DNA from: Acaryochloris marina S15
Lineage (GTDB): Bacteria; Cyanobacteriota; Cyanobacteriia; Thermosynechococcales; Thermosynechococcaceae
Direction: 5' to 3'
Length of the DNA: 32,000 bases
NCBI RefSeq assembly: GCF_018336915.1
Contig: NZ_CP064923.1
Span: forward strand, 2,700,001 to 2,732,000
Shown here: positions 1 through 17,524 of the stretch, piece by piece
Layout: each line of letters begins with the position of its first letter
Numbering within the stretch: the first letter of the stretch is position 1
Notes under the pieces: model-generated
Databases searched by the model: none
Told to the model about the DNA's origin: nothing
Seen by the model: the letters and a program-made list of their open reading frames with translations, nothing else
Position numbers and translations under genes: made by a program

Positions 1-258
1 AATAGGGGTGGATGCACCTAAGGGCAGCTTCTGCAATTCAGCACAGCAGGTAAATCCATCCATAACTGGCATTTTGGCATCCAACAGAACCATATCAGGC
101 TTGCGGGCGAGATAAGCATTCAGGCACTGCTGACCATTTTCAACATCGACTACCTCACACCCGTCTTGCTCCAAAATCAGGCGAAGAATAATTCGAGTTG
201 ATCGATCGTCATCGACAACTAAAATAAGCGGGGTACGTTTTTCCAAGGTCTGACTCAT
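1..258 (-). CDS. Response regulator, CheY-like receiver domain (5' part only; the gene runs off the left edge of the window)
   Basis: The reverse complement of 258..1 starts with ATG and reads MSQTLEKRTPLILVVDDDRSTRIILRLILEQDGCEVVDVENGQQCLNAYLARKPDMVLLDAKMPVMDGFTCCAELQKLPLGASTPI. It carries the acidic DDD pocket and the LLDAKMPxMDG phospho-acceptor motif. The frame stays open to the window edge. It is absent from the ORF track because it is truncated. Confidence 0.8.
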   Translation of the reverse strand, partial: MSQTLEKRTPLILVVDDDRSTRIILRLILEQDGCEVVDVENGQQCLNAYLARKPDMVLLDAKMPVMDGFTCCAELQKLPLGASTPI

Positions 259-704
259 CTCACCAAAACTAGAGAATGGGGAAGAACAATTTTTCGGAGT
301 AAATCATGGCTTTTGGTACTATTTTGCCAGATTTTCTGGAGCTAAATTAGCGACTAACTATTCAAATATTTATCTCCTAGTAAGCCCACCTGTCATTCAA
401 AACATTACATCTCCAGCAGGATCGATAAAACTACCATAATCAGCATTTTTTTCCTCTTCAATTTGCAAGACTAAGATAGCGGACAAAGCACTAGCTAGAT
501 TTAGTGTAAAGGCTGATACCCCTGCCTAAATTGTTCGGTCTAGGAGCGATAAGGGCATGCTAATGATGCAGCAATGGAGAAGCTTTCTCTTGCCAAAGAA
601 AGTCTTTCTAGAAATCAACTTCCTTCTCAGTAAACATTTACATCAAATAACTATTAAAAAAAGAATATTTTTTAATACTCAACTAACATCTATCAAGCGA
701 AAAA

Positions 705-3700
705 ATGCAGCCGCTGAATTCATCAAAGTTTAGCCTGATTGATGGTCTGAAACAATGTTTAGCTCCCCTTCGTTCTCCCCTGAGTCGTCAGATTGGCATT
801 ATGGGGTTAGGAAGCTGCCTCATTGCCGAGGCTGTCATTTTAGTACCGGCCTATTTCAGGATTAGAGAAGCCAAACTAGGCCAACTGGAAGCCCAAAGTT
901 TAACCGCAATCACCCCTTTGGCCAGTTTCGCTAACACGAAGTCCTCTCCAGACCAGCTAGTTGATACGGCTGAGACCCTCATGCAGGGGTCAAACGTCAT
1001 GGGTGGCACCCTCTACCAAAATGGGAGTAAACGGGTCACGTTTGGGACTTCCCCTACATTGCCAGATTTTTCTAATCCTGACATAACCAGGGTTTGGAAC
1101 AACTCGTCATCGACTTACGATATTACTTGGCCACAGCAAGAGAATACCGGTTATCGATTATCTTTAAGGCTGGACGGGACAGAGATTCAGGCAGCAGCCC
1201 TAACGAGCTCTCTACAGTTAGCCGGATTCATTCTGCTCATTTGGATTACGTTTACGATTATTACCCTACAGGCTGTGAGCCGTACGGTTATCAGTCCCCT
1301 CAACCAGCTGTTAGATGAGTTACGGAAAGTTGAAGTTGCCATGTCTGGCGATCCTAGCCAGGTGGAATTGAGTTCTCTGGAATGCGATCGCAACCATGAA
1401 TTAGCTGAGGTCATCGATACCTTCAATGTTGTTCTCCAACGAGCCGCTCTCAATATTGGCCAACTCAAAGACAGCATGATTTCCCTGTTGGAGACTCGGC
1501 AGCAGGAGTTAGAGGAGATGGTTTCTGAGCTCCAATCTGCTAAACATGAAGCAGAGACAGCCAATCAGGCCAAAAGTCAATTTCTGGCCAATATGAGCCA
1601 TGAAATTCGCACCCCCATGAATGCAGTCATTGGCATGACTGGTTTACTCTTAAATACGCCTTTAGAGACACAACAACAGGATTTTGTCGAAACCATCCGC
1701 AGTAGTGGGGATGCCTTACTGACCCTGATCAACGATATTTTAGATTTCTCCAAAATTGAGGCAGGGAAGCTGGATCTTGAACAGCAACCCTTTGAAATCA
1801 GGACCTGTATTGAAGAAGCCTTGCTGATCGTTGCATCGAAAGCCTCTGGTAAAAATCTGGAGCTGGCTTATCTGATTAATCCACCCACGCCAACCGCCAT
1901 TCTGGGGGATATTACTCGCCTACGTCAGGTTTTAGTCAACCTGCTCAACAATGCGATTAAGTTTACAGGCGAAGGGGAAGTCGTCGTTTATGTGTCTTCA
2001 AAACCCATTGAGACTATAGATATGGGGACTGATACAGACCTGGAAGTGATCGCCGAAGCCACCCCCTATGAAATCCAATTTGATGTCAAAGACACGGGAA
2101 TTGGCATTCCCCCGGACAAGTTAGAGCATTTATTCAAATCTTTTTCCCAGGTTGATGCTTCTACAACCCGTAAGTTTGGGGGTACTGGCCTTGGTTTAGC
2201 CATTAGTAAGCAGCTCAGCGAACTGATGGGGGGCAAAATATGGGTCACTAGCGAGGTGAGTCTCGGGTCCACCTTTTCCTTTAACATTGCTGCCTCCGAG
2301 ATTCCGAACTATGTCAGCCCCAAAGCAGTCTCAGATATTCAGTTAGCGGGCAAACAGCTCTTGATTGTGGATGATAATGCCACCAATCGAGAGATCTTAT
2401 CCCTACAGGCTCAATCTTGGGGAATGTTAACTTGTGCGGTTAAGTCCGGCATTAAAGCCTTAGAGTGGCTGCAACGAGGTGTAAATTTTGACCTCGCCGT
2501 CCTTGATATGCAAATGCCGGAGATGGACGGGGTGACCTTGGCACAGAAAATCCGGGAAGAGCCCAACGGTAAAACATTACCCCTGGTGGTCTTAAGTTCT
2601 TTAGGACAAGATGACATCCGAGCCCGGGCTGGCGACATTAATTTTTCGGCCATTTTAAACAAGCCTGTTCAGCAAGCTCAACTTCAAAGCGTCCTCTCCC
2701 AAGTGCTAGACAACCCTCTGATTAAAGTTGAGCAGACCTCAGGCGTTCAAGAAAAACCCACCAATCTAGGTGATCAACATCCCTTGCGCATCCTCTTAGC
2801 AGAGGATATGGTGGTCAACCAAAAAGTGGCCCTGTTGATTTTAAAACAATTGGGCTATCGAGCCGACGTTGCCAACAACGGTCTAGAAGTCATTGAAGCC
2901 TTAGAGCGGCAATCCTATGATGTTGTTCTCATGGATGTGCAAATGCCAGAGATGGATGGTCTCACCGCAACCCGAGAAGTTTGCCAACGCTGGTCCCCTG
3001 AAGATCGTCCTCACATCATCGCCATGACCGCCAATGCCATGCAGGGCGATCGAGAAATGTGTCTGGATGCGGGTATGGATGCCTATATCACCAAACCCGT
3101 CCGCGTCAACGAGCTAAGGGATGTCCTCAGTCGGTGCCAACCGATGGAGGAGCCTGAGGAAACACCTCCTCCTATTCCTGTGGCACCATTGCAGCCCGTC
3201 AGCCTCAATGAACCGACTCCACCAGACTTGCCCATGGCACCGGAAAGCTCTCAACCCGTTGCCGTTTTAGTGGGGAGTACAGCAACCCAGCAGGTCCAGG
3301 CGACTGAACAGATTCCCCAATTAGAAGAGAATCTGTCAGTACCGTTTCCTCAAAGCACCTCCATTCCCCCTCTCCCCGAGATACAAGCTACTCTTGCGTC
3401 TCAAGAAACAACCGTAATCATGGAACAACCAACGATGGCCGAAACCTCAATGGATCCGAGCATTATTGACCCCGCAGCATTGGATAGTTTCCGCCAGCTC
3501 GCTGGGGAACATGCGTCTTTACTCATTGCTGATTTGTTAAACACCTATCTGGAAGATGCACCGGGGCGAGTCGAAAAAATGCATCAGGCCGTCAAAGACG
3601 CTGATCCAGATGGGTTAAGTGATGCAGCCCATGCCCTGAAATCAGCCAGTGCCAACCTTGGTGCTAAACAACTGGCGAGTTTCTGTTCCGAGGCAGAAGC

Positions 3701-3815
3701 CCTCGGGCGTTCAGGTACGACGGCAGGATCTGCAGACGTTGTCTCTCAGATTTCTCAAGCCTACGAGACCGTTCGCATTGCTTTTGAAGCGGAAATGGCT
3801 GCCTGCAGTGTTTAG
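705..3815 (+). CDS. Hybrid sensor histidine kinase (TM sensor, HAMP-like linker, HisKA, HATPase_c, REC, REC, HPt)
   Basis: 1036-aa ORF with ATG at 705. TM1 is [22 protein letters not shown], followed by a ~130-aa external region and TM2 [17 protein letters not shown]. The H-box is [16 protein letters not shown] (His codon 1599-1601). ATP-lid boxes are [16 protein letters not shown] and [10 protein letters not shown]. There are two receivers ([20 protein letters not shown] and [20 protein letters not shown]). A ~110-aa Pro/Gln-rich linker leads to a C-terminal HPt domain, [15 protein letters not shown] (His codon 3630-3632). Confidence 0.95.
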
Positions 3816-3860: not shown

Positions 3861-6800
3861 ATGTTATGGCTACTTGTCTGTTCAGCACTAGTCTTTGTGA
3901 TGCAACCCGGGTTTATGTGCCTGGAGTCTGGACTTACGCGTTCCAAAAATAATATCAACGTTGCCATTAAAAATTTTGCAGACTTTAGCCTATCCACCCT
4001 TATCTTCTGGTTTTTGGGCTATGGCTTGATGTTTGGAGCATCCATTAACACTGTTATCGGCACGGATCAATTTCTAGCTTCCCCTGAAACAGACGCAGCT
4101 CTAGCAGCGTTTATTGTCTTTCAAACTATGTTTTGCAGCACTGCAGCCACCATCGTTTCAGGAGCTGTGGCGGAGCGCACTAAGTTTGGGGGCTATCTGA
4201 TGATCACTGCCTTTATGGCCAGTGTGATCTACCCCATCTTTGGGCATTGGGTCTGGAACGGTATCGAAGCTGGACAAGTGGAGGGCTGGTTAGGACGGAT
4301 GGGATTTGTTGATTTTGCCGGATCAACGGTCGTCCATAGTGTGGGGGGATGGGTTGCCCTAGCAGCTATTTTAATTATTGGGCCTAGACAAGGGAGATTT
4401 TCCAAGACAGATGCCCCAAAGGAGATTTTGGGGTCAAGCTTACCATTATCCGTCTTGGGTGCTTTACTGCTATGGATGGGATGGCTAGGCTTTAATGGCG
4501 GGAGTGGTCTAGAATTCAGTGACCGCGTTCCGATCATCTTACTGAATACAGTGCTCGGCGGTGCTGCTGGGACCCTGACTGCAGGTGCTCTAGGATGGTG
4601 GCGGACGAAGATTCCCAAGATTGAGTTAATGATTAATGGTTCCCTGGCAGGACTAGTGTCGGTGACCGCCAGTTGCCATGTCATCAACCCACCCCTAGCT
4701 ATCATCATCGGTGCCATCGGTGGAGCCGTCATGATGGTGGTCAAACATTGGATGACTCAGCTACAAATTGACGATGCAGTTGATGCCGTACCGGTTCATT
4801 TGGGAGGCGGAATTTGGGGCACCTTAGCGGTCGGGCTATACGGTCGCCCAGATTTACTAGAGACCGGCCTCAATCGCGGTAGCCAAATCGGCGTTCAGCT
4901 TTTGGGGATAGCCGCATGTGGGGTTTGGACCTTCGGTTTGAGTTGGCTTTTGTTAAAAGGGGTGGATCGACTGATGCGCTTGCGGGTATTGGCAAAAGAT
5001 GAACAGATGGGCCTTAACTTTGCCGAGCATCATGCCAAATCTGAAGTCCTTGATTTGTTCCAGGTAATGGATCAACAGGCAGAAGACCTCGACTTCAGCT
5101 TGCGGGCTCCCGTTGAACCCTTTACAGAGGTCGGTCGCATTGCTACCCGCTATAACCAAGTGATTGATGCGTTAGAAAAGTCTAATCACGAATTGTTGGA
5201 TACGAAAACCACCCTAGAGCAACAAGTGGAAGCTCGAACAGCGAAACTCGTTGAAACTAATCAAGAACTGCAGCAGCTTGCTCACTTGAAAGCAGATTAC
5301 TCGCGAACCCTGGAAGCCGAGGTCGAAGCCAAAACTCAAAAGCTGAGACAAGAAATTGAAGAGCGGCAAGAAGCAGAAATTGCCCTGGCTCAGCAGGTTA
5401 AGCGAGCACAGCTTTTGGAGAAAATCACCCAGGCTATTCGTCAAAACCTAGATACCCAAAGAATTTTTCAGGCTGCAGCAGATCAAATTGGTCAGGTTTT
5501 TCAAGTCAGTCGTTGCCACTTACATAGCTATACGGAAGATGGAGAGGCCTCTATTCCTGTTGTGGCAGAATATACAGCTCCTGGTACTAATTCACTTCTC
5601 GGCATTGAGATGCCTGTGGCGGATAATCCCCATGCCCAACAGGTCCTCGCTCAGGATAAAGCTGTCGTAACTCCGAATATCTATACCGATCGATTGCTGG
5701 AAGCCCTGATTTCAGATTCTCAGCCGGTTACCTTGAAGTCGATGTTAGCGGTACGCACGTCCTATCAAGGCAAACCCAATGGCGCGATTATCTTACAACA
5801 TTGCGATCGCAGATTGTCTCGCCAAGCGTATCTGTCCCAACCCGATGCCCATGAGGACTGTTTTCGAGCTTGGCCCGCTGCCGAAATCGACTTATTAGAA
5901 GCAGTTGCTGACCAAATCGGCATTGCCCTGGCCCAAGCCCAACTGTTGGAACAAGAGCAATCCCAGCGCACCCAGCTGCAACAAGAAATTTTTGAGCGCC
6001 AACAAACTGATGCGGCTTTAAAGGAAAGCAAGGAACGGTTTCAATTAGCCGTTCAGGGGTCAGGAGATGTCCTTTGGGATTGGAATATCGTTAACAAAGC
6101 CTTTTATCTTGCCCCCCGATTTGGTCAACTGTTGGGCTATGAAACCGATGAGTTAGACTGCACCTTAGACACCTGGAAAGCCCATATTTGTCTAGAGGAT
6201 CAAGAGCAGGTCTCTCTGGCTCTCAAGCATCATTTAGAACACTTAGTTCCTTACGAAGTAGAGTATCGTCTGCGGACAAAAGCAGGCTATTACCTGTGGG
6301 TGTCCGGTCGTGGTCAAGCCATCTGGGATATCGAAGGCAAACCCATCCGCATGGCCGGATCTATTCGTGATATTACAGAAAACAAAGCAGCCACTGAAGC
6401 CCTAAAGCAACAAATGCGTCGGGCTGAACTGGTAGAAGAAATTACCCGTAAGATCCGTAAAAATATAGACCGCCAACAAATCTTCAAGGCCACTGTTCAA
6501 GAACTTGGCAAAGCCTTTCAAGTCAGTCGGTGTCATCTTCATACCTACGTCACGCAACCCAAACCCCATTTACCCATCGTTGCAGAATACCTAACGGGAG
6601 AGTCCCCCTCCATGCTGGGGACCGACATTTTGCTGGAAAACAATCCCCATGCCCGCAAAGTTCTACGGCATGATCGCGCGGTTGCCTCTGCTAATATACT
6701 CAGCGATCCTCTTCTGCAAACCGTTGCGGACATTTTTGTGCAAGGCCAAGTTAAATCCATGTTGGCAATTCGCACCTCCTATCAGCGCAAAGCGAATGGA

Positions 6801-8624
6801 GTGATTGTGCTACAACAATGCGATCGCAACCGGGACTGGACCCAAGCCGAAATTGAACTCATAGAAGCCGTTGCCGGACAAGTTGGTATTGCCCTAGCCC
6901 ATGGTCATCTCCTGGAGCAGGAACAACAACAGCGCCAAAAATTGACTCAGAACAATTCAGCATTGAAACAAGCCCGGACAGAGGCCGATGCTGCCAACGT
7001 CGCCAAAAGCGAATTTTTGGCCACCATGAGTCATGAAATTCGCACCCCGATGAACGCGGTCATTGGCATGACGGGTCTGTTGCTGAATACAACCTTAGAT
7101 AATCAACAACGGGACTTCGTTGAAACCATTCGCAGCAGTGGAGATGCCCTGTTAACCCTGATCAACGACATCCTAGATTTCTCCAAAATTGAAGCTGGAA
7201 AACTAGAATTTGAAGAACAGCCCTTTAGTCTACGGGCCTGTATTGAAGAATCCCTGCGTCTAGTGGCCCCCAGAGCCATTGATAAACAGCTCGAACTTGC
7301 CTATTTATTCGATCCCACTACCCCCAACCACATCGTGGGCGATGTTACCCGGCTACGCCAAATCTTGGTGAATTTACTCACCAATGGCGTTAAATTTACG
7401 GAGCAGGGTGAAGTAGTGATTTATGTTCAGGACATCACTGATACTGAAACCGACCCGAAAGAGACGTCACCCCAACGGAAAAATATTACCGATATTCAAA
7501 ATCAACGTCGTTTGATCCAATTCGAAGTCAGAGATACCGGCATTGGTATTCCGGAAGATCGGATGAACCGTCTGTTCAAATCCTTTAGCCAGGTGGATGC
7601 CTCAACTACCAAAAAATATGGGGGTACAGGACTTGGATTAGCCATTTGTAAATCTCTCTCCCACATGATGGGTGGCCGGATCTGGGTCGAGAGCAAAGCT
7701 GGTGTTGGGTCTAGCTTTTTCTTTACTATTGCGCTACCTGTTGCCCCTGAGGGAGACAATACCCTCGATCAATCTCAACAAATACTCGATGGCAAGCAGC
7801 TACTTGTGGTGGACGACAATCCCACTAATCGCAGAATTTTGACCCTACAAGCCCAAACCTGGGGCATGGGAATCCAAACTGTTAGCGGTGGTGCTGAAGC
7901 CCTGGCACTCCTGAACAGTGACTCCCAGTTTGATCTGGCGATCTTGGATATGCAAATGCCCGAAATGGATGGGGGCGAATTAGCAAAGCATATTCGACAA
8001 CTCGATCAGGGAAAACAGCTCCCCCTCGTCATGCTCAGTTCCTTGGGACAAGACGAAATCATTAAACATAAGCAAGAAATTCAGTTTTCTGCCATTCTCA
8101 ACAAACCAATCCAGCAATCCTACTTATACGATGCCTTAGCAGAAATCTTTGAAGGTCAGCGGATCAAAGTTAAACCCACTTTAGCTTGTCCTGTGAATTT
8201 GGAAGTACAGAGTGATCAGTCCCTCCAAATATTGTTGGCAGAAGATATTGTCGTCAATCAAAAAGTGGCTCTACTGATCCTGAAACAAATGGGTTACCGG
8301 GCAGATGTAGCCAACAATGGCGAAGAAGTCTTAGAAGCTCTTCATCGCCAGTCCTACGATGTCGTGTTAATGGATGTTCAAATGCCCGAAATGGATGGCC
8401 TGACAGCAGCCAGCTGCATTAAAGAACAGTGGAAGGAAGAGGAACGGCCCTATATTATTGCGTTGACCGCCAATGCTATGCAGGGGGATCGGGAAATGTG
8501 TATGGCAGCAGGAATGCATGACTATGTCAGTAAACCCATTCGTGTAGATGAGTTACAAACTGCCTTTGAACGGTATTATGCTCAGGCCAAACAACCCCAG
8601 GTGGCTTATGCAGCCCCCAACTGA
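3861..8624 (+). CDS. Ammonium transporter (Amt) domain fused to coiled coil, GAF, PAS, GAF, HisKA, HATPase_c, REC and REC: a multi-sensor hybrid histidine kinase
   Basis: Single 1587-aa ORF with ATG at 3861, 45 nt after the previous stop. Residues 1-~390 are Amt-like: QPGFMCLESGLTRSKN, FQTMFCSTAATIVSGAVAER, VDFAGSTVVHSVGG (His159), DAVDAVPVHLGGGIWG (His313). Then come a coiled coil and two GAF repeats that share FQVSRCHLH.Y and KSMLA.RTSYQ.K.NG.I.LQ.CDR. A PAS domain sits between them (FQLAVQGSGDVLWDWN..YEVEYRLRTKAGYYLWV). The H-box is [12 protein letters not shown] (His codon 7032-7034), the ATP-lid boxes are DTGIGI and [10 protein letters not shown], and there are two receivers. There is no HPt domain. 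Confidence 0.95.
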   Translation: MLWLLVCSALVFVMQPGFMCLESGLTRSKNNINVAIKNFADFSLSTLIFWFLGYGLMFGASINTVIGTDQFLASPETDAALAAFIVFQTMFCSTAATIVSGAVAERTKFGGYLMITAFMASVIYPIFGHWVWNGIEAGQVEGWLGRMGFVDFAGSTVVHSVGGWVALAAILIIGPRQGRFSKTDAPKEILGSSLPLSVLGALLLWMGWLGFNGGSGLEFSDRVPIILLNTVLGGAAGTLTAGALGWWRTKIPKIELMINGSLAGLVSVTASCHVINPPLAIIIGAIGGAVMMVVKHWMTQLQIDDAVDAVPVHLGGGIWGTLAVGLYGRPDLLETGLNRGSQIGVQLLGIAACGVWTFGLSWLLLKGVDRLMRLRVLAKDEQMGLNFAEHHAKSEVLDLFQVMDQQAEDLDFSLRAPVEPFTEVGRIATRYNQVIDALEKSNHELLDTKTTLEQQVEARTAKLVETNQELQQLAHLKADYSRTLEAEVEAKTQKLRQEIEERQEAEIALAQQVKRAQLLEKITQAIRQNLDTQRIFQAAADQIGQVFQVSRCHLHSYTEDGEASIPVVAEYTAPGTNSLLGIEMPVADNPHAQQVLAQDKAVVTPNIYTDRLLEALISDSQPVTLKSMLAVRTSYQGKPNGAIILQHCDRRLSRQAYLSQPDAHEDCFRAWPAAEIDLLEAVADQIGIALAQAQLLEQEQSQRTQLQQEIFERQQTDAALKESKERFQLAVQGSGDVLWDWNIVNKAFYLAPRFGQLLGYETDELDCTLDTWKAHICLEDQEQVSLALKHHLEHLVPYEVEYRLRTKAGYYLWVSGRGQAIWDIEGKPIRMAGSIRDITENKAATEALKQQMRRAELVEEITRKIRKNIDRQQIFKATVQELGKAFQVSRCHLHTYVTQPKPHLPIVAEYLTGESPSMLGTDILLENNPHARKVLRHDRAVASANILSDPLLQTVADIFVQGQVKSMLAIRTSYQRKANGVIVLQQCDRNRDWTQAEIELIEAVAGQVGIALAHGHLLEQEQQQRQKLTQNNSALKQARTEADAANVAKSEFLATMSHEIRTPMNAVIGMTGLLLNTTLDNQQRDFVETIRSSGDALLTLINDILDFSKIEAGKLEFEEQPFSLRACIEESLRLVAPRAIDKQLELAYLFDPTTPNHIVGDVTRLRQILVNLLTNGVKFTEQGEVVIYVQDITDTETDPKETSPQRKNITDIQNQRRLIQFEVRDTGIGIPEDRMNRLFKSFSQVDASTTKKYGGTGLGLAICKSLSHMMGGRIWVESKAGVGSSFFFTIALPVAPEGDNTLDQSQQILDGKQLLVVDDNPTNRRILTLQAQTWGMGIQTVSGGAEALALLNSDSQFDLAILDMQMPEMDGGELAKHIRQLDQGKQLPLVMLSSLGQDEIIKHKQEIQFSAILNKPIQQSYLYDALAEIFEGQRIKVKPTLACPVNLEVQSDQSLQILLAEDIVVNQKVALLILKQMGYRADVANNGEEVLEALHRQSYDVVLMDVQMPEMDGLTAASCIKEQWKEEERPYIIALTANAMQGDREMCMAAGMHDYVSKPIRVDELQTAFERYYAQAKQPQVAYAAPN

Positions 8625-8676
8625 TGGCAACCCTCTTATCTGGAAATTCTAACCGCTTCTCCAGCCATATCTCTCA

Positions 8677-8712
8677 AGCTATTCGTCTCAAAGACGAATA
8701 GCTTTATGTTTA
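8677..8712 (+). terminator. Probable intrinsic terminator of the kinase transcription unit
   Basis: Perfect 12-bp inverted repeat AGCTATTCGTCT (8677-8688) / AGACGAATAGCT (8692-8703) with a 3-nt loop, followed by TTATGTTTAT. It lies 53 nt after the stop at 8624. The stem is only moderately GC-rich. Confidence 0.55.
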
Positions 8713-8753
8713 TAAAGTCATCACCGTAGGTTGAAGCAGACATGATACGCTGA

Positions 8754-8875
8754 TATCCTCATCGGTTTTAGTGGGGAGCAGCCACTAAAGTAATGGGGAA
8801 AGCTTGGTGAAATTCCAACACTGTCCCGCAGCTGTAAGCAGAGCATCTCTGTAAGTCAGAACGCCCGCCGAGATA
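8754..8875 (+). promoter_or_regulatory. Cobalamin (B12) riboswitch
   Basis: Conserved core read directly: AATGGGGAA, GGTGAAATTCC (8806-8816), CTGTCCCGCAGCTGTAAGC, and the B12 box AGTCAGAACGCCCGCC (8854-8869). A P2-like hairpin pairs TTTAGTGG (8767-8774) with CCACTAAA (8782-8789). A P1-like closing helix pairs TATC..TCGG with CCGAGATA (8868-8875). The element ends 30 nt before the hupE start. The outer boundaries are approximate. Confidence 0.85.
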
Positions 8876-8905
8876 TACGGTAAACACTTCTGCGAGGCAC
8901 AGAGA

Positions 8906-9568
8906 GTGACAGTACAGATTAATCGATCAAACCGAAGACCAGTATTTTTTATCCCCAGCATCAGCTTACTGGCAAGCTTAGGGGTTTTTAGTTCCAGTCT
9001 AGAGGCTCAAGCCCACCATCCCTTTGGCGGACAAACACCTTCCAATATTCTTGAAGGCTTTTTATCGGGCCTAGGTCACCCAGTCGTTGGTATAGACCAC
9101 CTTGTATTTGTCATTGCCATTGGCTTAATGGCCGCTATTTTGCGTCAAGGACTTTGGGCTCCCCTTGCCTTTGTGACCACCGCATTATTGGGAGCGGGAA
9201 TTCATCTACAAAGTTGGGACCTACCCGCTCCTGAATTCTTTATTTCTGCATCGGTCCTCTTAATGGGTGGCCTGCTGGCTCTTAAACAAAGTCCCCACCC
9301 TTGGTTAGCCTCCGGATTGGCTGGTTTTGCGGGTCTATTTCATGGCTATGCATATGGTGAGGCGATTGTCGGTGCCGAAATGACGCCTTTGGTGTCCTAC
9401 TTAGTTGGTTTTTCAGTCATTCAACTGGTGATTGCAGCCCTAGCCTACCGCTGTGGACGTGCTCTCAATTCTGCTTCTTCAGAACAGTCTACCCTGCCAT
9501 TAAGATTTGCTGGCTTTGCGATCGCAGGGATGGGACTCGCTTTTTTAAGCACCGTCCTTCTGGGCTAG
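8906..9568 (+). CDS. hupE: HupE/UreJ-family metal (probably cobalt) permease
   Basis: 220-aa ORF with a GTG start at 8906, preceded by GAGG (8894-8897). The signal peptide ends ..SSLEAQA. It is followed by HHPFGG and GFLSGLGHPVVGIDHLVFVIAIG, the HupE/UreJ signature. The rest is multi-TM and hydrophobic. The gene sits immediately downstream of the cobalamin riboswitch. Confidence 0.85.
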   Translation: MTVQINRSNRRPVFFIPSISLLASLGVFSSSLEAQAHHPFGGQTPSNILEGFLSGLGHPVVGIDHLVFVIAIGLMAAILRQGLWAPLAFVTTALLGAGIHLQSWDLPAPEFFISASVLLMGGLLALKQSPHPWLASGLAGFAGLFHGYAYGEAIVGAEMTPLVSYLVGFSVIQLVIAALAYRCGRALNSASSEQSTLPLRFAGFAIAGMGLAFLSTVLLG

Positions 9569-9596: not shown

Positions 9597-10658
9597 ATGC
9601 ATAAAATTCCCGTAACGGTGGTCACCGGATTTCTAGGTGCCGGCAAAACGACGTTAATTCGCAATTTACTACAAAACAATCAAGGTCGACGGATTGCCGT
9701 CATGGTCAATGAATTCGGCGAAGTCGGTATTGATGGCGATCTATTGCGTTCCTGTCAAGTTTGTGACGAAGAAGGAGAGGTGGACAGCAATATCCTCGAA
9801 CTCACCAACGGCTGTCTGTGCTGCACGGTTCAGGAAGAGTTTTTACCAACCATGCAAACCCTTTTGCAACGGCGAGATCAAATTGACTGCATCGTGATCG
9901 AGACGTCAGGTTTGGCCTTGCCTAAACCCCTTATCCAAGCCTTTCGCTGGCCCGAAATCCGCACGGGGGCGACGGTAGACGGGGTGATTACTGTAGTGGA
10001 TTGTGATGCGATCGCATCCGGTACCCTAGTGGGCGATCTAGACGCTCTTGAGTCTCAGCGCCAAGCCGATGACAGCCTCGATCACGAAACCCCCATCGAA
10101 GAGCTTTTTGAAGATCAATTGGCCTGTGCAGACCTCGTTTTACTGACCAAGGGAGATTGTGTCGAACAAAAGGATCAAGAACGAGTCCAACACTGGTTGC
10201 GTCAAGAACTTCCCAGCGGTGTCAAAGTCTTACCTTGTCATGCAGGACAAGTCAGCCCCGACCTATTATTAGGCTTTAATGCGGCGGTTGAAGATCACCT
10301 AGAATCTCGTCCCAGTCACCACGATCACGAAGAGGAACATGATCATGATGATGACATCAATGCCATCCAAGTGATAGTCGACCAAGCATTTGACCCGAAA
10401 GAGCTATTGACCCAACTGCAAGCATTAGTTCAAACCCATGAGATCTTTCGGATAAAGGGATTTGTGGCCGTTCCCCAAAAACCGATGCGCCTCGTTATTC
10501 ATGGTGTGGGGCAACGCTTTGATTCTTTTTATGATCGTCTTTGGCAACCTCAAGAAGCTCGCCAAACAAAGTTGGTATTTATCGGTGAGAATCTTCAACA
10601 ATCCGAAATAGAGAATGCCCTTCTCCAACCCACGGCAAAACTTTCTCTTCAACCGTAG
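9597..10658 (+). CDS. cobW: CobW/COG0523-family metallochaperone GTPase
   Basis: 353 aa. P-loop GFLGAGKTTL and the COG0523 metal motif GCLCCTV (CxCC). Also IETSG, LTKGD and an acidic His-rich stretch SHHDHEEEHDHDDD. The tail is CobW_C-like (FRIKGFV..VIHGVGQRF). The start is 28 nt after hupE, so the gene is probably co-transcribed under the B12 riboswitch. Confidence 0.9.
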   Translation: MHKIPVTVVTGFLGAGKTTLIRNLLQNNQGRRIAVMVNEFGEVGIDGDLLRSCQVCDEEGEVDSNILELTNGCLCCTVQEEFLPTMQTLLQRRDQIDCIVIETSGLALPKPLIQAFRWPEIRTGATVDGVITVVDCDAIASGTLVGDLDALESQRQADDSLDHETPIEELFEDQLACADLVLLTKGDCVEQKDQERVQHWLRQELPSGVKVLPCHAGQVSPDLLLGFNAAVEDHLESRPSHHDHEEEHDHDDDINAIQVIVDQAFDPKELLTQLQALVQTHEIFRIKGFVAVPQKPMRLVIHGVGQRFDSFYDRLWQPQEARQTKLVFIGENLQQSEIENALLQPTAKLSLQP

Positions 10659-10663
10659 GACCA

Positions 10664-11719
10664 TTACTTCGTGAGACACACCGTATTACTTTCTGGGCTT
10701 GTCAAGGCCCCAGTTGTGGCTATCACAGAGTAGCAATGCTGTTCGCCACTATTGCCAGACAAAGCAACTGAGGTCGAGGAATTGCTCCCACTATAAACTT
10801 GTGACTCATTGGTGACGACCACTTGCTGGACCCCATAGGCTGTCAGCGCCGTTTGACCAGACCATGTCCAAGACAAATCAACCGTATCGGTACCTGATGG
10901 TCTCGTCCCCGTCAGGACTGGGACCGTCTGCATATTACCCAATCGAGAGGTAGCGGTACTACTCAAACGGTGGATTTCCACATCCGATATATTGCTGTGC
11001 ATCAACAAGTCCACTTGTGTTCCCTTCACACAGGCTTGAAACCCCATGGCTCCCACCAACACACCCGGTGCTAGGCAAGGGGGAGACTCATCATTCGCAG
11101 TTGCGATCGCATCTACCAAAGTATCGCTAGAAATAGGGTCACTACAGGGATTAATGCTGCCGTCCAATTCTGGGATCCGACCATATCGAAAAATTGAGTT
11201 TGGGGGTAGCCAATCTTGTCCACTAGCTCGCACATCGTAAACCACCCGATCATAGTTTGCGGGCTGGGGAGGCGAAGATCCAGCATTTGGCCCATCTGCT
11301 GGGCAAACTTGAGGGATTGACGAATTAATCGGGATTTCCAAATAGAGGACCAACGTGCCATAGGCCCCTAGATCGGCTAGGTCTAATCCTGCATCCGTGA
11401 CCACATTTGCCAAAGTCGAGGAATTTGAGGCCACTACATTGTTTGTGTGATTGATGCGATTTGCCATTCTGATCTCATTACTAATGAAATCAAAGGCTCT
11501 ACTTAAGTCATGGCGTCGAGCCGCAATAGATTCCGTTTTTTTGTTGGCTTGGGATGCAGTGACGACCCCAAACCCAATCACACTGGTCACTAACCCAGTA
11601 ATGATGGTGGCAGCAAGAAGTTCTACCAGGGTTACTCCCTGTTCATGTAATCGAGGATGATCCTGCAGGGGAGTCTGCTGCACCAACGGCCCTATTCGCC
11701 AGTGTTGGAAATGCTTCAT
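10664..11719 (-). CDS. Type IV minor pilin / pseudopilin (PilW-like) with a C-terminal Fn3-like domain
   Basis: Prepilin cleavage/methylation motif QG|VTLVELLAATIITGLV, then RHDLSRAFDFISNEIRMA typical of PilW-like proteins. I prefer the ATG at 11719 (MKHFQHW...) because it forms an ATGA start/stop overlap with the upstream gene's TGA (11716-11718). The track ORF extends to 11746. The last ~85 aa look like fibronectin type III (TVDLSWTW...YGV...CYSVIATTGALTSPESNTVC). Confidence 0.8.
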   Translation of the reverse strand: MKHFQHWRIGPLVQQTPLQDHPRLHEQGVTLVELLAATIITGLVTSVIGFGVVTASQANKKTESIAARRHDLSRAFDFISNEIRMANRINHTNNVVASNSSTLANVVTDAGLDLADLGAYGTLVLYLEIPINSSIPQVCPADGPNAGSSPPQPANYDRVVYDVRASGQDWLPPNSIFRYGRIPELDGSINPCSDPISSDTLVDAIATANDESPPCLAPGVLVGAMGFQACVKGTQVDLLMHSNISDVEIHRLSSTATSRLGNMQTVPVLTGTRPSGTDTVDLSWTWSGQTALTAYGVQQVVVTNESQVYSGSNSSTSVALSGNSGEQHCYSVIATTGALTSPESNTVCLTK

Positions 11720-12609
11720 TGCTGGTCCCATTTCTCTGCAATGCAACGTCCAGTCGTCGTAATTGCTAACGGCGTCATTTCACCGGTATAGGTCCCTACT
11801 CGGGTCAGTCCCAAGGTATTCGAAATGGCGATACAACGCTTCGTTCCTTGGGCATCATCAGGAAAAAAGAACACAATCTTGCCGCTAGGGTCAGTCGGGC
11901 TATTCCCGTTGCTAACAATCGAGAAGTCGGGGTTACCTAGAACACCAAACCGAATGGGAATATCATAGGAAACCCCTGACTTAGATGTCCCTGGTGAATC
12001 TTCATCACCGACAAAATCACCAGCAACTTGCATACACTTCCCAGAATTTAAGGGCTGACAAGGTGAAATAACTTGCACAACCATGCCCGCATTAGAGGCT
12101 CGCTCGGCTTGTTCCGCTAAATCTGACAAAGCAATCAAAGAAGAGGCTCGCTCGGCTTGTTCCGCTAAATCTGACAAAGCAATCAAAGAAGGGGAAACAC
12201 CATTACTCACCCCCTGCACTATCTGGCTATCAGCAATAACCCTGCCCTTTTGACTCGTCAGGGGACTCGAACCATCATTGGTTAAATTCGTAGCGATGGA
12301 AATTTCAGATGCTAAGTTGCGATCCCCCGTCTTTAAACAAGACCCCGTGACCTTCCCATCTACAAAATTTAGAGTCACTGTACAAACTTTGTTCCCACGG
12401 ATCGCTTCCCGTTGGGTTTCGTTAAGAGCAGTCCGAACTTCAGCAACGGTTTGCTTCAGTCTGGCTCGATTCAGCATTCCCCAAACCCCTGGCGCAGAAA
12501 TGCTAGCAACGATACCCAAGATGGCCACAATCACCATCTTTTCTATCAAGGTAAATCCAGATACCGGAGATAACCTCCAGGGGGGCAGTCTCAAGTTGTT
12601 GGGGAGCAT
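11716..12609 (-). CDS. Type IV minor pilin / pseudopilin (GspH/FimT-like)
   Basis: MLPNNLRLPPWRLSPVSG|FTLIEKMVIVAILGIVASI is a classic prepilin leader with G-FTLIE. It is followed by LKQTVAEVRTALNETQREAIRGNKVCTVTL, which is FimT/GspH-like. GAGG lies 9 nt upstream of the ATG at 12609. The gene contains an in-frame 16-aa tandem duplication. Confidence 0.85.
   Translation of the reverse strand: MLPNNLRLPPWRLSPVSGFTLIEKMVIVAILGIVASISAPGVWGMLNRARLKQTVAEVRTALNETQREAIRGNKVCTVTLNFVDGKVTGSCLKTGDRNLASEISIATNLTNDGSSPLTSQKGRVIADSQIVQGVSNGVSPSLIALSDLAEQAERASSLIALSDLAEQAERASNAGMVVQVISPCQPLNSGKCMQVAGDFVGDEDSPGTSKSGVSYDIPIRFGVLGNPDFSIVSNGNSPTDPSGKIVFFFPDDAQGTKRCIAISNTLGLTRVGTYTGEMTPLAITTTGRCIAEKWDQQ
12095..12190. 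repeat. Perfect 48-bp direct tandem duplication (2 copies) inside the FimT/GspH-like pilin gene
   Basis: GAGGCTCGCTCGGCTTGTTCCGCTAAATCTGACAAAGCAATCAAAGAA occupies 12095-12142 and repeats identically at 12143-12190. It is in frame and encodes SLIALSDLAEQAERAS twice. Confidence 0.97.
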
Positions 12610-12647
12610 CTACGAACCTCAGGGATGAAAGCGGATATCAGAACGAT

Positions 12648-13172
12648 TTAGGGACACTTGAACACAGCATGGGGTATCACTTCAGTATTGACTATCGCAA
12701 TCGGTTTGCTTTCCCCCTGGGCCGTTACCTGGTAAGTCACATTCAACAATCGAAATGGGTCCGATGAACTAGCATAATTGGCCGTGCGCGTCAGCGTATA
12801 GTATTTTCCACCTAAAGCTCTCGGGCCAATAGTGGCAGAGGTCCCCCCTAAGCCCGCTACAGTATCGTTTAGAAACCCTGCAGCTAAACCATTGCTACTC
12901 AAGGTTGCTAAGCATCGAGAAGAATAAGGCTGTGTTAATACCTCATACTGGGTCGCTTGATTAACCACCATTTCTAGGTCTTCTTGTATCCAACTCACTG
13001 CTTCGTCATATTGAGTAGCCACAACGCGAAATGCAGCAGAGGTAACAATGGCTTGCATCGTCATAGAGACAAAAACAGCAGCAACAATCATTGCCACCAA
13101 TACTTCTATCAACGTAAAACCAGTATGTCGACGGTCAACATCGACGGCTTTGCAAGATGAGCGAGTTGGCAT
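12648..13172 (-). CDS. Type IV pilin-like protein (PilV-like minor pilin)
   Basis: RRHTG|FTLIEVLVAMIVAAVFVSM is a prepilin methylation motif. Cysteines at SSRCLATL and the C-terminal FKCP could form the pilin D-region disulfide. I prefer the ATG at 13172 (MPTRSSCKAVDVDRRHTG leader, 18 aa). The track ORF runs to 13265 but would add an implausible 31-aa Trp/Met-rich extension. The start remains uncertain. Confidence 0.75.
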   Translation of the reverse strand: MPTRSSCKAVDVDRRHTGFTLIEVLVAMIVAAVFVSMTMQAIVTSAAFRVVATQYDEAVSWIQEDLEMVVNQATQYEVLTQPYSSRCLATLSSNGLAAGFLNDTVAGLGGTSATIGPRALGGKYYTLTRTANYASSSDPFRLLNVTYQVTAQGESKPIAIVNTEVIPHAVFKCP

Positions 13173-13623
13173 CACTCCCCATTGCAGCACCCACCACCGA
13201 TACATAAAATTCATTGCCCTACATTGACGCATCATCATATCCCCATCAGCGATCCATTCTTGCACTCACAAAACGATGTGACATCAATCGATTGATTCTC
13301 AACATCCGCTCAATATCACACGTTATCTAGCAACTTGAACGCAACACTCCTAGCACTGTCATGGGCATCCTCTTAAGGGCTGAGAAAGTGAGATATAACC
13401 ATGGCTAAGGTACCTATATGCCCACCCACCGCTTTCTTTTGAAAGAGGTGTATCTTTATTCCTCAATCTCATTATTCGTTGGACCAGCTATTTTTTCGAC
13501 CGGAGGAATACTGATATTCGATATCCAAGACCATTACATTCTTCCTGGGACCCTCTTACATACTCATTCACTCCGTAGTTTTAACTAGACTGATTAGGAG
13601 GCTACTGGGCGACTCAAAGATAA

Positions 13624-14949: not shown

Positions 14950-15170
14950 AAGGAGCAAACAATACAAAAGGGGTTATTTTATTATTCCCGAATCATAAGG
15001 ACTTGGTAAAATTATGAAGCGGATATTGGCAATCGACTTCAGAGTTTTTAATTATTTTAGAAACCTCATACTTATATTTGTCATTCTTAACTACCTTTCC
15101 TCTATTTTTTGTAGGATAGATTGGTAATTATGGCCTCCACAAAACAATATAATACTTTTGAGGCAATCTA

Positions 15171-17231: not shown

Positions 17232-17305
17232 GGGGCTGTGGCTCAGTTGGATAGAGCAAGCGCCTCCTAAGCGCTAGGTCGGCGGTTCGAATCCGCCCAG
17301 TCCCG
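17232..17305 (+). tRNA. tRNA-Arg (anticodon CCU)
   Basis: Hand-folded cloverleaf. Acceptor stem GGGGCTG/CAGTCCC (one G-U pair). D arm GCTC-AGTTGGATA-GAGC. Anticodon arm AGCGC-CTCCTAA-GCGCT, giving anticodon CCT. Variable loop AGGTC. T arm GGCGG-TTCGAAT-CCGCC. Discriminator G. No CCA is encoded. Confidence 0.93.
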
Positions 17306-17524
17306 TTCCTATTTTCCCGTCATCTGCAGATACTGCTCTGTTCACAGTGGGCTAATAGATTGCTTAGCCCCCCTTAAAAGTGCAGGATGATCATCCTCCT
17401 ACATATCTCTTTGCTAAACTTATAGAATTTTCACCCCTATTTAACGAGTAGGGTGTTTAAAACATCTCGTCTCCTTATACGCCTGTCCTACACTGACTCA
17501 TTGTTTGAGGCATATTTGCTGATT

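What the first reader, a model, noticed from the sequence alone, without database searches (positions are those of the whole stretch)
3861..8624. A complete Amt ammonium channel fused in one ORF to GAF-PAS-GAF, a histidine-kinase core and two receivers
Seen in the sequence:
- One uninterrupted 1587-aa ORF.
- The first ~390 aa carry the Amt hallmarks, including both pore histidines: VVHSVGG (His159, codon 4335-4337) and VPVHLGGG (His313, codon 4797-4799). The FQTMF..AER segment holds the Phe-gate region.
- After these come a coiled coil, two GAF domains flanking a PAS domain, an intact H-box/ATP lid, and two receivers with their acidic pocket, phospho-Asp, Ser/Thr and Lys positions.

Established knowledge:
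- The Amt C-terminus is cytoplasmic, so the topology suits cytoplasmic signalling domains.
- An Amt-histidine-kinase fusion (Ks-Amt5 of Kuenenia stuttgartiensis) has been characterised as an ammonium sensor.

Inference: this protein is an ammonium transceptor that integrates further cytoplasmic inputs through GAF-PAS-GAF before feeding a phosphorelay. The architecture is much more elaborate than the characterised example. I know of no characterised cyanobacterial member, where nitrogen sensing is normally attributed to PII/NtcA.
Basis: partly seen in the sequence, partly recalled or inferred. Interest (0 to 1): 0.7.

Follow-up and report, generated by a model that had tools for sequence, protein, structure and literature searches.

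The report
Ammonium-receptor (Amt-like) hybrid histidine kinase
This Acaryochloris marina gene really does join a complete ammonium-transporter-like membrane domain to a multi-sensor hybrid histidine kinase; it carries the full ammonium-binding signature of the known "sensor Amt" receptors, so it is an elaborate, uncharacterised cyanobacterial member of a known receptor class and not a new kind of system.

Summary
Window 3861-8624(+) is one 1587-aa ORF with the order Amt (2-392), HAMP-like helix pair and coiled coil, GAF, PAS, GAF, HisKA, HATPase_c, REC, REC. It is identical to WP_212665958.1, "ammonium transporter [Acaryochloris marina]".

The Amt module is closest to the two characterised ammonium receptors, Sd-Amt1 (46.6% identity) and Ks-Amt5 (39.9%). 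It matches the published AmR N1/N2 signature exactly (Q15, E22, N38, D41, F42, T97, S100). It also keeps the switch Lys37, the exit Asn259, the Trp/Ser filter, the Phe gate and the twin His. These residues are almost invariant in 240 fused homologues.

Every domain is under purifying selection. Orthologues from independent assemblies keep the fusion, so it is not an artefact.

The protein has no Hpt domain. The gene 45 bp upstream is a paralogous hybrid kinase that ends in an Hpt. A REC-PAS-GAF-PP2C regulator is transcribed divergently. This three-gene module is conserved, and one lineage has lost everything of the upstream kinase except the Hpt.

More than 100 other Amt-hybrid-kinase clusters exist in cyanobacteria, Planctomycetes and Nitrospirota. 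The exact architecture is restricted to Acaryochloris, but the kind is known. Whether ammonium controls the kinase is untested.

The parts
3861..8624 (+). Whole gene: 1587-aa Amt-like ammonium receptor / hybrid histidine kinase. It is identical to WP_212665958.1 of Acaryochloris marina.
3864..5036 (+). Amt module (residues 2-392) with 11 transmembrane helices. Pore residues are F91, F211, W132, S215, H159 and H313. The exit Asn is N259.
   Evidence: Pfam E 7e-118. PDB sequence hits: Sd-Amt1 2e-115, Ks-Amt5 5e-89. Residue map. AF2 model and Foldseek: TM-score 0.94 (normalised to the target length), rmsd 1.6 A to 8qj3.
3903..4160 (+). N1/N2 ammonium-binding signature, residues 15-100: Q15, E22, N38, D41, F42, T97, S100. 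Also F18 and the switch Lys K37.
   Evidence: The published regex QX6EX15NX2D[F/T]X54-60TX2[S/T] matches residues 15-100 (PMC11152129). Column-by-column match to Sd-Amt1 and Ks-Amt5. Nearly invariant in 240 homologues.
5037..5252 (+). HAMP-like connector (residues 393-464): short helix 395-409, loop, long helix 423-464. Strongly conserved among cyanobacterial fused Amts.
   Evidence: AF2 secondary structure, pLDDT about 83. Conservation. Below the Pfam HAMP threshold, with only a weak match to the poly-HAMP structure 9trk, E 0.28.
5268..5417 (+). Long signalling helix / coiled coil (residues 470-519) leading into GAF1.
5451..5930 (+). GAF1 (residues 531-690).
   Evidence: Pfam GAF 5.9e-12. 46% identical to GAF2, E 7e-59.
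6105..6362 (+). PAS domain (PAS_3, residues 749-834).
   Evidence: Pfam 2.1e-19. PDB 3mr0, 3e-34.
6468..6896 (+). GAF2 (residues 870-1012). Related to cyanobacteriochrome-type GAF domains but lacks the chromophore Cys-His.
7002..7199 (+). HisKA / DHp domain (residues 1048-1113) with the phospho-acceptor H1058.
7338..7736 (+). HATPase_c catalytic domain (residues 1160-1292) with N, G1, F and G2 boxes.
7803..8138 (+). Receiver 1 (residues 1315-1426): D1318/D1319, D1363, S1393, K1415.
8229..8567 (+). Receiver 2 (residues 1457-1569): E1461/D1462, D1505, T1536, K1558.
8676..8704 (+). Terminator-like hairpin with a 13-bp stem, 52 nt after the stop codon. It probably marks the end of the transcription unit.
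705..3815 (+). Upstream paralogous hybrid kinase (1036 aa), 45 bp before the Amt-HK start. Order: TM, periplasmic segment, TM, weak HAMP, HisKA, HATPase_c, REC, REC, Hpt. Probably in one operon with the Amt-HK.
   Evidence: Pfam. Core 58% identical to the Amt-HK core over 595 aa. Conserved upstream of the orthologues.
3531..3776 (+). Hpt domain (residues 943-1024 of the upstream kinase). It is the only Hpt in the neighbourhood and the inferred phosphotransfer partner of the Amt-HK receivers.
   Evidence: Pfam 2.5e-16. 69% identical to the 180-aa Hpt ORF that alone survives upstream of the orthologue in L082-L084.
1..258 (-). First 86 codons of a divergently transcribed REC-PAS-GAF-SpoIIE (PP2C) response regulator; the gene runs off the window. 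Candidate terminal acceptor of the relay.
   Evidence: 91% identity to the N-terminus of the 709-aa regulator of L082. Same gene in the same position in L082-L084, L087, L088 and L089.

Best explanation
The gene encodes an Amt-like ammonium receptor (AmR) of the class defined by Ks-Amt5 and Sd-Amt1, built as a hybrid histidine kinase. Shown by sequence: a complete 11-helix Amt module with an intact outer selectivity filter, Phe gate and twin-His pair, plus the full ligand set of the intramembrane N1/N2 site. Inferred from the two solved receptors: external NH4+ passes the filter and is diverted below the His pair into N1/N2, formed by E22, N38, T97 and S100 (N1) and Q15, N38, D41 and T97 (N2). 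Binding moves E22 and K37 and shifts the C-terminal end of the Amt module. That movement goes through the conserved HAMP-like helix pair (393-464) and a long signalling helix into GAF1-PAS-GAF2. These domains add unknown cytoplasmic inputs and set the autokinase activity of the DHp/CA core at H1058. The phosphoryl group then goes to one of the protein's own receivers (D1363 or D1505). The protein has no Hpt, so the next step is inferred to be the Hpt at the end of the co-transcribed upstream hybrid kinase. From there the signal would reach the receiver of the divergently encoded REC-PAS-GAF-PP2C phosphatase regulator. In this model, external ammonium, a second signal sensed by the upstream kinase and cytoplasmic ligands converge on one relay. 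As in Sd-Amt1, a trimeric sensor must drive a dimeric transducer.
For: Domain order and completeness. The nearest solved proteins by sequence are the two receptors (Sd-Amt1 2e-115, Ks-Amt5 5e-89), ahead of the transporters Af-Amt1 (3e-58) and EcAmtB (2e-32). The same order holds by fold. The published AmR signature matches, and every N1/N2 ligand, the switch Lys and the exit Asn align (PMC11152129, PMC5764959). The transporter-type Tyr and Ser (Af Y27/S251, Ec Y32/S263) are replaced by E22 and N259. The signature is nearly invariant in 240 fused homologues. All domains have dN/dS of about 0.13 or less with saturated dS, and the Amt module is the most conserved part. Kinase and receiver catalytic residues are intact. 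A helix-loop-long-helix follows TM11, as described for the Sd-Amt1 HAMP. The three-gene module is conserved in four diverged lineages, and only the Hpt is retained in a fifth. A terminator hairpin and a separate riboswitch bound the unit downstream.
Against: There are no functional data for this protein or for any cyanobacterial relative. The N1/N2 signature is not exclusive to pure receptors. The same cluster holds about 30% of all Amt sequences, including transport-competent plant AMT1 proteins (PMC11152129). The bulky pore-blocking residues Y30 and F34 of Ks-Amt5 are L21 and L25 here, so transport is not excluded. The HAMP assignment fails the Pfam threshold. The relay partners are inferred from gene neighbourhood only, and only within one genus-level clade. 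More distant Amt-hybrid kinases have other neighbours. The ligands of the GAF and PAS domains are unknown.
Confidence: 0.62

Rival explanations
1. It is a true transceptor. The Amt module still conducts ammonium into the cell, and the kinase reports flux or occupancy during transport, as proposed for plant AMT1 and yeast Mep2. The protein would then contribute to nitrogen uptake as well as to signalling.
For: All pore residues are intact. The Ks-Amt5 blocking residues Y30 and F34 are the smaller L21 and L25. The N1/N2 cluster includes proven transporters, and the structural data on Sd-Amt1 alone could not resolve whether it also transports (PMC11152129).
Against: The two closest characterised proteins bind ammonium but do not complete translocation (PMC5764959, PMC11152129). 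The exit-narrowing Asn of Sd-Amt1 is conserved as N259, and the exit Tyr and Ser of transporters are absent.
Confidence: 0.22
2. The information flows the other way. The cytoplasmic GAF-PAS-GAF-kinase part senses the internal state and gates or regulates the Amt pore through its C-terminal region. This would resemble the control of plant AMT1 by C-terminal phosphorylation or of AmtB by GlnK.
For: The Amt C-terminal region is a known regulatory element. The cytoplasmic part resembles soluble multi-sensor kinases that work without any membrane sensor.
Against: In both characterised fusions ammonium modulates the transducer (PMC5764959, PMC11152129). The N1/N2 receptor site is conserved, although a regulated transporter would not need it. 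A full kinase plus two receivers is a costly way to gate a pore.
Confidence: 0.07
3. The Amt module is only a membrane anchor or oligomerisation scaffold, or it senses another small cation or amine, and ammonium is not the physiological signal.
For: No direct ligand data exist. Membrane domains of some kinases are mere anchors.
Against: The Amt module is the most conserved part of the protein (83-90% identity, dN/dS about 0.04). The filter, gate, twin-His and N1/N2 residues are almost invariant across 240 fused homologues. An anchor would not be under such constraint.
Confidence: 0.05
4. The long ORF is an artefact, for example two genes joined by a sequencing or assembly error between the Amt and kinase parts.
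For: None found.
Against: Thirteen of the 15 members of the 90%-identity cluster are 1587 aa long and come from many independent assemblies. Seven further orthologue clusters have the same architecture. Purifying selection acts across the junction.
Confidence: 0.01

Closest known systems
Sd-Amt1 of Shewanella denitrificans (ammonium receptor; PDB 8QJ3, 8QJ4, 8QPF; PMC11152129)
   Same: It is the closest solved protein: 46.6% identity over the Amt module, Foldseek TM-score 0.94 (target-normalised), rmsd 1.6 A. It shares every N1/N2 ligand (Q, E, N, D, F, T, S), the switch Lys (K44 = K37), F25 = F18, and the exit Asn (N269 = N259). Both have a short-helix, loop, long-helix connector directly after TM11.
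   Different: The Sd-Amt1 transducer is a GGDEF diguanylate cyclase placed right after the HAMP. Here the connector leads into GAF-PAS-GAF, a histidine-kinase core and two receivers. The connector here does not reach the Pfam HAMP threshold.
Ks-Amt5 of 'Candidatus Kuenenia stuttgartiensis' (ammonium sensor histidine kinase; PDB 6EU6; PMC5764959)
   Same: It is an Amt module fused to a histidine kinase. It has the N1/N2 site and an intact filter, gate and twin-His pair.
   Different: Identity is only 39.9%. Ks-Amt5 joins a plain kinase to the Amt by a helical connector, without GAF, PAS or REC domains. Its extra pore-blocking Y30 and F34 are L21 and L25 here. It has R46, T51 and T271 where this protein, like Sd-Amt1, has K37, F42 and N259.
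Assimilatory Amt transporters (E. coli AmtB, A. fulgidus Amt1)
   Same: Same 11-helix fold. Same Trp/Ser filter, Phe gate and twin-His pair.
   Different: Identity is 30-34%. They lack all N1/N2 ligands (Af: V, Y, S, S, A; Ec: I, Y, V, T, G). They have Tyr and Ser at the exit where this protein has E22 and N259. They carry no fused cytoplasmic domains.
Soluble cyanobacterial multi-sensor hybrid histidine kinases of the BarA/TorS/ArcB type (e.g. Coleofasciculus L001: CBS-PAS-GAFx3-HK-RECx2-Hpt)
   Same: Residues about 493-1577 align with them (best segment 58% identical; DHp 79-80%, REC2 65-71%). The order GAF/PAS, HisKA, HATPase_c, REC, REC is the same.
   Different: They have no Amt head, and they carry their Hpt on the same chain. 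Here the Hpt sits on the neighbouring gene. NCBIfam scores for TorS, BarA and ArcB are far below the cut-offs, so this protein is not an equivalog of any of them.
Uncharacterised cyanobacterial Amt-PAS-SpoIIE/PP2C and Amt-PAS-HK fusions, annotated 'ammonium transporter'
   Same: They are the closest relatives of the Amt module plus connector (52-63% identity) and have the same invariant N1/N2 signature.
   Different: Their output is a directly fused PP2C phosphatase or a simple kinase. Here a PP2C domain appears only on the separate, divergently encoded response regulator.
Eukaryotic ammonium transceptors (yeast Mep2, plant AMT1, Drosophila Amt)
   Same: They share the concept of an Amt protein used for signalling. 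Plant AMT1 and Dm-Amt fall in the same N1/N2 cluster according to PMC11152129.
   Different: They have no fused bacterial signalling domains. Mep2 lacks the N1/N2 site and is only a distant match here (E about 1e-37).

Membership tests
AmR: sensor Amt-like ammonium receptors (Pfluger et al. 2018, 2024) | Amt/Rh fold with 11 transmembrane helices | tested here: met
   Pfam PF00909 over 396 of 399 profile positions, E 7e-118. The AF2 model has 11 long helices and a target-normalised TM-score of 0.94 to 8qj3.
AmR: sensor Amt-like ammonium receptors (Pfluger et al. 2018, 2024) | N1/N2 signature QX6EX15NX2D[F/T]X54-60TX2[S/T] | tested here: met
   The regex matches residues 15-100. Each ligand aligns with its Sd-Amt1 and Ks-Amt5 counterpart.
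AmR: sensor Amt-like ammonium receptors (Pfluger et al. 2018, 2024) | Retained selectivity filter (Trp/Ser), Phe gate and twin-His pair | tested here: met
   W132/S215, F91/F211 and H159/H313.
AmR: sensor Amt-like ammonium receptors (Pfluger et al. 2018, 2024) | Cytoplasmic transducer module fused to the C-terminus of the Amt module | tested here: met
   HisKA and HATPase_c lie downstream in the same ORF. The fusion is kept in all orthologues.
AmR: sensor Amt-like ammonium receptors (Pfluger et al. 2018, 2024) | NH4+ binding modulates the transducer, and there is no complete translocation | not testable with these tools
   This needs an autophosphorylation assay, ITC/MST and SSM electrophysiology.
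Assimilatory Amt transporters (cluster 1 of PMC11152129: AmtB, Af-Amt1) | Tyr and Ser lining the cytoplasmic exit (Af Y27/S251) and absence of the N1/N2 ligands | tested here: not met
   E22 and N259 occupy these positions, and the N1/N2 ligands are present.
Hybrid histidine kinase (HisKA family) of a multistep phosphorelay | H-box His and N, G1, F and G2 boxes | tested here: met
   H1058 in SHEIRTP. NLLTNGVKF at 1171, DTGIGI at 1225, FKSFSQ at 1239, GGTGLGL at 1254. Pfam HisKA 5e-22 and HATPase_c 3e-26.
Hybrid histidine kinase (HisKA family) of a multistep phosphorelay | Fused receiver with acidic pocket, phospho-Asp, Ser/Thr and Lys | tested here: met
   Both receivers are complete, with CheY-like spacing.
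Hybrid histidine kinase (HisKA family) of a multistep phosphorelay | An Hpt domain (in cis or trans) and a terminal response regulator | tested here: inconclusive
   There is no Hpt in the protein. An Hpt lies on the upstream gene, and a REC-PP2C regulator is encoded divergently. Both are conserved in the orthologous loci. Actual phosphotransfer is untested.
HAMP domain | Match to PF00672, and a two-helix unit with a connector | tested here: inconclusive
   There is no Pfam match even at E up to 10. A poly-HAMP structure matches only weakly, E 0.28. The AF2 model shows helix 395-409, a loop, and helix 423-464 at pLDDT about 83.
Cyanobacteriochrome / phytochrome bilin-binding GAF | Canonical chromophore-binding Cys(-His) in the GAF domain | tested here: not met
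   The nearest PDB GAF domains are cyanobacteriochromes (E 1e-13 to 1e-6). The Cys-His position aligns with non-Cys residues or with a gap in GAF2. GAF1 has no Cys at that place.
TorS / BarA / ArcB equivalogs (NCBIfam) | Score above the curated equivalog cut-off | tested here: not met
   Scores are 435 against a cut-off of 676 (TorS), 413 against 890 (BarA) and 364 against 838 (ArcB).

The most novel reading that the evidence does not exclude
Acaryochloris, and by extension many cyanobacteria, may have a direct sensor of external ammonium that works independently of the 2-oxoglutarate/PII/NtcA route. In this genus the receptor would be wired into a multi-input phosphorelay: two hybrid kinases, one shared Hpt, and a REC-PAS-GAF-PP2C regulator. 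That relay would be a split version of the directly fused Amt-PAS-PP2C receptors common in other cyanobacteria. A PP2C phosphatase (partner-switching type) output would then be the general end point of cyanobacterial ammonium perception.
Probability: 0.3. Interest if true: 0.65.

Novelty: new variant of a known kind. Interest (0 to 1): 0.4.

Why it matters
Nitrogen control in cyanobacteria is usually explained by internal 2-oxoglutarate sensing through PII and NtcA. I found no paper on a dedicated sensor of external ammonium in cyanobacteria in the searchable library. This gene shows that cyanobacteria carry receptors of the AmR class with an intact ammonium-binding site, yet the databases call them only "ammonium transporter". 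So do its many relatives: Amt-PAS-PP2C, Amt-PAS-HK and Amt-hybrid HK. The Acaryochloris locus is a convenient test case because the likely partners (Hpt and the REC-PP2C regulator) lie next to the receptor. The protein also combines a Sd-Amt1-like sensor head and connector with a Ks-Amt5-like kinase output. That makes it useful for asking how a trimeric sensor drives a dimeric kinase. It does not reveal a new principle.

Tried and rejected
- **Bilin photoreceptor idea.** The GAF domains match cyanobacteriochrome structures best. The canonical Cys-His is absent, so I rejected this.
- **HAMP by profile.** There is no Pfam hit even at E up to 10, and the HAMP hits in homologues P0020, P0026 and P0103 lie in a second, downstream segment. 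I kept only "HAMP-like", based on the AF2 model.
- **Functional link to the downstream hupE/ureJ-cobW genes (nickel, urease or ammonium).** I rejected this. A strong terminator hairpin and a cobalamin riboswitch lie between them and the Amt-HK, so they form their own B12-controlled unit, even though they are syntenic.
- **NtcA control.** One GTAN8TAC sits at 506-519 in the divergent promoter region. The window has 5 matches against 2.6 expected, and I saw no -10-like box at the spacing I expect from memory of NtcA-activated promoters. This is not evidence.
- **Special co-evolution or heterodimerisation of the two neighbouring kinases.** The DHp domains are 87% identical, but unrelated cyanobacterial hybrid kinases reach 79-80%. 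This is family-level conservation.
- **Generality of the Hpt/REC-PP2C neighbourhood.** Distant Amt-hybrid kinases have other neighbours. These include a Tll0287-HAMP hybrid kinase, a REC-GGDEF-EAL regulator, or nothing relevant.
- **The genome-contig scan.** It was dominated by the kinase part and did not return the source genome. The organism came instead.
- **The first protein search.** It missed the self-hit because of the candidate cap.
- **Loci L044 and L057.** They looked fragmented and I did not analyse them further.
Full report
**1. The observation**

Window 3861-8624(+) is a single open reading frame of 1587 codons. Pfam finds these domains, in order:

| Domain | Residues | Note |
|---|---|---|
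| Ammonium_transp | 2-392 | E 7e-118; 396 of 399 profile positions |
| GAF | 531-690 | |
| PAS_3 | 749-834 | |
| GAF | 870-1012 | |
| HisKA | 1048-1113 | |
| HATPase_c | 1160-1292 | |
| Response_reg | 1315-1426 | |
| Response_reg | 1457-1569 | |

I aligned the protein with E. coli AmtB, A. fulgidus Amt1, Ks-Amt5 and Sd-Amt1. That alignment reproduces every published residue number for those four proteins. It places the residues of this protein as follows:
- F91 and F211 at the Phe gate
- W132 and S215 at the outer filter
- H159 and H313 at the twin-His pair

The kinase has H1058 in its H-box and intact N, G1, F and G2 boxes. Both receivers have the acidic pair, the phospho-Asp, the Ser/Thr and the Lys at CheY-like spacing.

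The fusion is real:
- The protein is identical to WP_212665958.1, "ammonium transporter [Acaryochloris marina]", on a 5.88-Mb contig.
- Thirteen of the 15 members of its 90%-identity cluster are 1587 aa long. They come from other Acaryochloris genomes and many independent assemblies.
- Seven more clusters at 80-91% identity have the same architecture.

**2. What the Amt module is**

By sequence, the nearest solved proteins are the two characterised ammonium receptors: Sd-Amt1 (E 2e-115) and Ks-Amt5 (5e-89). They are far ahead of the transporters Af-Amt1 (3e-58) and EcAmtB (2e-32). An AlphaFold2 model of residues 1-520 (mean pLDDT 83.8) gives the same ranking by fold. Sd-Amt1 is first, with a target-normalised TM-score of 0.94 and rmsd 1.6 A.

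Pfluger et al. (PMC5764959, PMC11152129) define this receptor class ("AmR") by an intramembrane site for two NH4+ ions, called N1/N2. They propose the signature QX6EX15NX2D[F/T]X54-60TX2[S/T]. The signature matches residues 15-100 of this protein. Each ligand aligns with its counterpart: Q15, E22, N38, D41, F42, T97 and S100.

Three further Sd-Amt1 features are also present:
- the switching Lys (K37)
- F18
- the Asn that narrows the cytoplasmic exit (N259)

The Tyr and Ser that line the exit of true transporters (Af Y27/S251, Ec Y32/S263) are replaced by E22 and N259.

In 240 fused homologues these positions are almost invariant; for example E22 is conserved in 240 of 240 and D41 in 239 of 240. 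This argues against the Amt part being a mere membrane anchor.

One caveat applies. The same N1/N2 cluster holds about 30% of all Amt sequences, including transport-competent plant AMT1 proteins (PMC11152129). The Ks-Amt5 pore-blocking residues Y30 and F34 are Leu here. Transport is therefore not excluded.

**3. The cytoplasmic part**

After TM11 the model shows a short helix (395-409), a loop and a long helix (423-464), followed by another long helix (470-519). Sd-Amt1 has a HAMP at the same place. This segment is strongly conserved among cyanobacterial fused Amts. It does not reach the Pfam HAMP threshold, so I call it HAMP-like.

GAF1 and GAF2 are 46% identical to each other (E 7e-59), which indicates an internal duplication around the PAS domain. 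Their nearest solved relatives are cyanobacteriochrome GAF domains, but the chromophore Cys-His is missing. They are not bilin photoreceptors, and their ligands are unknown.

Residues 493-1577 resemble soluble cyanobacterial multi-sensor hybrid kinases, for example a Coleofasciculus CBS-PAS-GAFx3-HK-RECx2-Hpt protein. The protein therefore looks like an AmR head grafted onto a common kinase chassis.

Against four orthologues, synonymous sites are saturated. dN/dS is about 0.13 or less in every domain where it can be computed, and the Amt module is the most conserved part.

**4. Genomic context**

The protein has no Hpt domain. The gene 45 bp upstream (705-3815) encodes a membrane hybrid kinase with this order: TM, periplasmic segment, TM, weak HAMP, HisKA, HATPase_c, REC, REC, Hpt. 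Its core is 58% identical to that of the Amt-HK.

On the other strand, window 1-258 encodes the start of a REC-PAS-GAF-SpoIIE (PP2C) response regulator.

The arrangement "regulator, divergent hybrid kinase with Hpt, Amt-HK" recurs in three further diverged lineages (L087, L088, L089). In a fifth lineage (L082-L084) the upstream kinase has been deleted down to a 180-aa Hpt ORF. That ORF still begins with a remnant of the second receiver, MMAMTANALQGD. Selective retention of the Hpt next to an Hpt-less hybrid kinase is my main argument that this Hpt serves the Amt-HK. It is an inference.

Downstream, a 13-bp-stem terminator hairpin (8676-8704) and a cobalamin riboswitch (8746-8886) separate the gene from hupE/ureJ and cobW. 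Those two genes are therefore an independent unit.

More distant Amt-hybrid kinases have other neighbours. These include a Tll0287-HAMP hybrid kinase, a REC-GGDEF-EAL regulator, or nothing relevant. The proposed partners are specific to this clade.

**5. How it most likely works**

Shown here:
- an intact receptor-type Amt module
- an intact kinase
- two intact receivers
- a conserved gene module around them

Inferred from Sd-Amt1 and Ks-Amt5:
- External NH4+ passes the filter and occupies N1/N2.
- The resulting shift at the Amt C-terminus is passed through the HAMP-like unit and the signalling helix to GAF-PAS-GAF.
- This sets the activity of the kinase dimer. As in Sd-Amt1, a trimeric sensor has to drive a dimeric transducer.

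Inferred from context:
- The phosphoryl group travels H1058, then D1363 or D1505, then the Hpt of the upstream kinase, then the REC-PP2C regulator.

The rival readings are a transport-competent transceptor, a kinase that gates the pore, an anchor or a different ligand, and an artefact. I weigh each of them in the rival explanations. The last is refuted.

**6. Comparison and novelty**

The protein meets every sequence-testable criterion of the AmR class. It combines the sensor head and connector of Sd-Amt1 with the kinase type of output of Ks-Amt5, and it adds GAF-PAS-GAF, two receivers and an Hpt in trans.

It is not unique. The 120 best hits of the full-length search are all Amt-kinase-receiver fusions. 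They come from cyanobacteria, Pirellulales, Nitrospirota and Deltaproteobacteria, and one locus from Anaerolineae also matches over the full length. Among the 120 best hits to the Amt head, about 50 are Amt-PAS/HAMP-PP2C fusions and about 34 are Amt-PAS-HK fusions, mostly cyanobacterial. Those that carry a source name are called "ammonium transporter".

The exact architecture is confined to Acaryochloris and its close relatives. I found no paper on a cyanobacterial member in the searchable library. Pfluger et al. already state that such receptors are widespread.

**Verdict.** This is a real, well-preserved and uncharacterised variant of a known receptor kind. It is of moderate interest, mainly as a tractable entry point to direct ammonium sensing in cyanobacteria.

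Noticed in passing
window 8746-8886 (+), with 8906-9568 and 9597-10658: A cobalamin riboswitch (RF00174, 57.9 bits) lies directly upstream of a hupE/ureJ-family metal permease and a cobW-family GTPase. This looks like a B12-controlled, probably cobalt-related unit. It is syntenic with the Amt-HK in most of the orthologous loci read (cobW in all, hupE not called in L087) but is separated from it by a terminator hairpin.
   Followed up: partly
proteins P0001-P0120: Cyanobacteria carry many other fused sensor-type Amts whose source names, where given, read only 'ammonium transporter'. About 50 of the 120 best hits are Amt-(PAS or HAMP)-SpoIIE/PP2C (about 800-850 aa), and about 34 are Amt-PAS-histidine kinase (about 870-900 aa). 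The rest are Amt with a 100-200-aa tail or with PAS domains only, including a 604-aa A. marina paralogue (P0067). All keep the N1/N2 signature.
   Followed up: partly
L082 8850-9921 (also L083, L084): In one orthologous lineage the upstream hybrid kinase has been deleted down to a 180-aa Hpt ORF. That ORF still starts with a remnant of receiver 2 (MMAMTANALQGD). DNA similarity to the window resumes at window 3013-3051 and 3442-3796.
   Followed up: yes
L090 8001-12953 (P0139) and L091 5995-12038 (P0136): Other unusual Amt fusions turned up in marine cyanobacterial MAGs. One is Amt-HK-REC-PAS-HK-REC, with two kinase cores on one Amt. Another is Amt-GAF-GAF-HK-REC next to a divergent REC-GGDEF-EAL regulator.
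   Followed up: no
L085 910-3498 (-) and L086 4993-7662 (-): The Amt-GAF-HK-REC relatives (47-50% identity) each have a divergently transcribed Tll0287-like-HAMP-HK-REC hybrid kinase. From its second TM/HAMP region onward it is about 44% identical to the window's upstream kinase. A second hybrid kinase beside the Amt kinase may therefore be an older feature.
   Followed up: partly
window 17453-20491 (+) and 23378-28048 (-): The glycine-cleavage P protein (gcvP, which releases ammonia) and ferredoxin-type glutamate synthase (GOGAT, which assimilates ammonium) lie 9-15 kb downstream of the Amt-HK. There is no evidence of a regulatory link.
   Followed up: no
window 506-519: A GTAN8TAC motif (NtcA-like) sits in the divergent intergenic region between the PP2C regulator and the upstream kinase. 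It is not significant (5 matches in the window against 2.6 expected), and I saw no well-spaced -10 box.
   Followed up: partly
window 11716-13265 (-), 13624-14967 (-), 28163-29977 (-), 17232-17305 (+): Other features: two ORFs with N-terminal methylation (pilin-like) motifs, a HAMP-GGDEF diguanylate cyclase, a Ser/Thr protein kinase fused to an FGE-sulfatase domain, and one tRNA gene.
   Followed up: no
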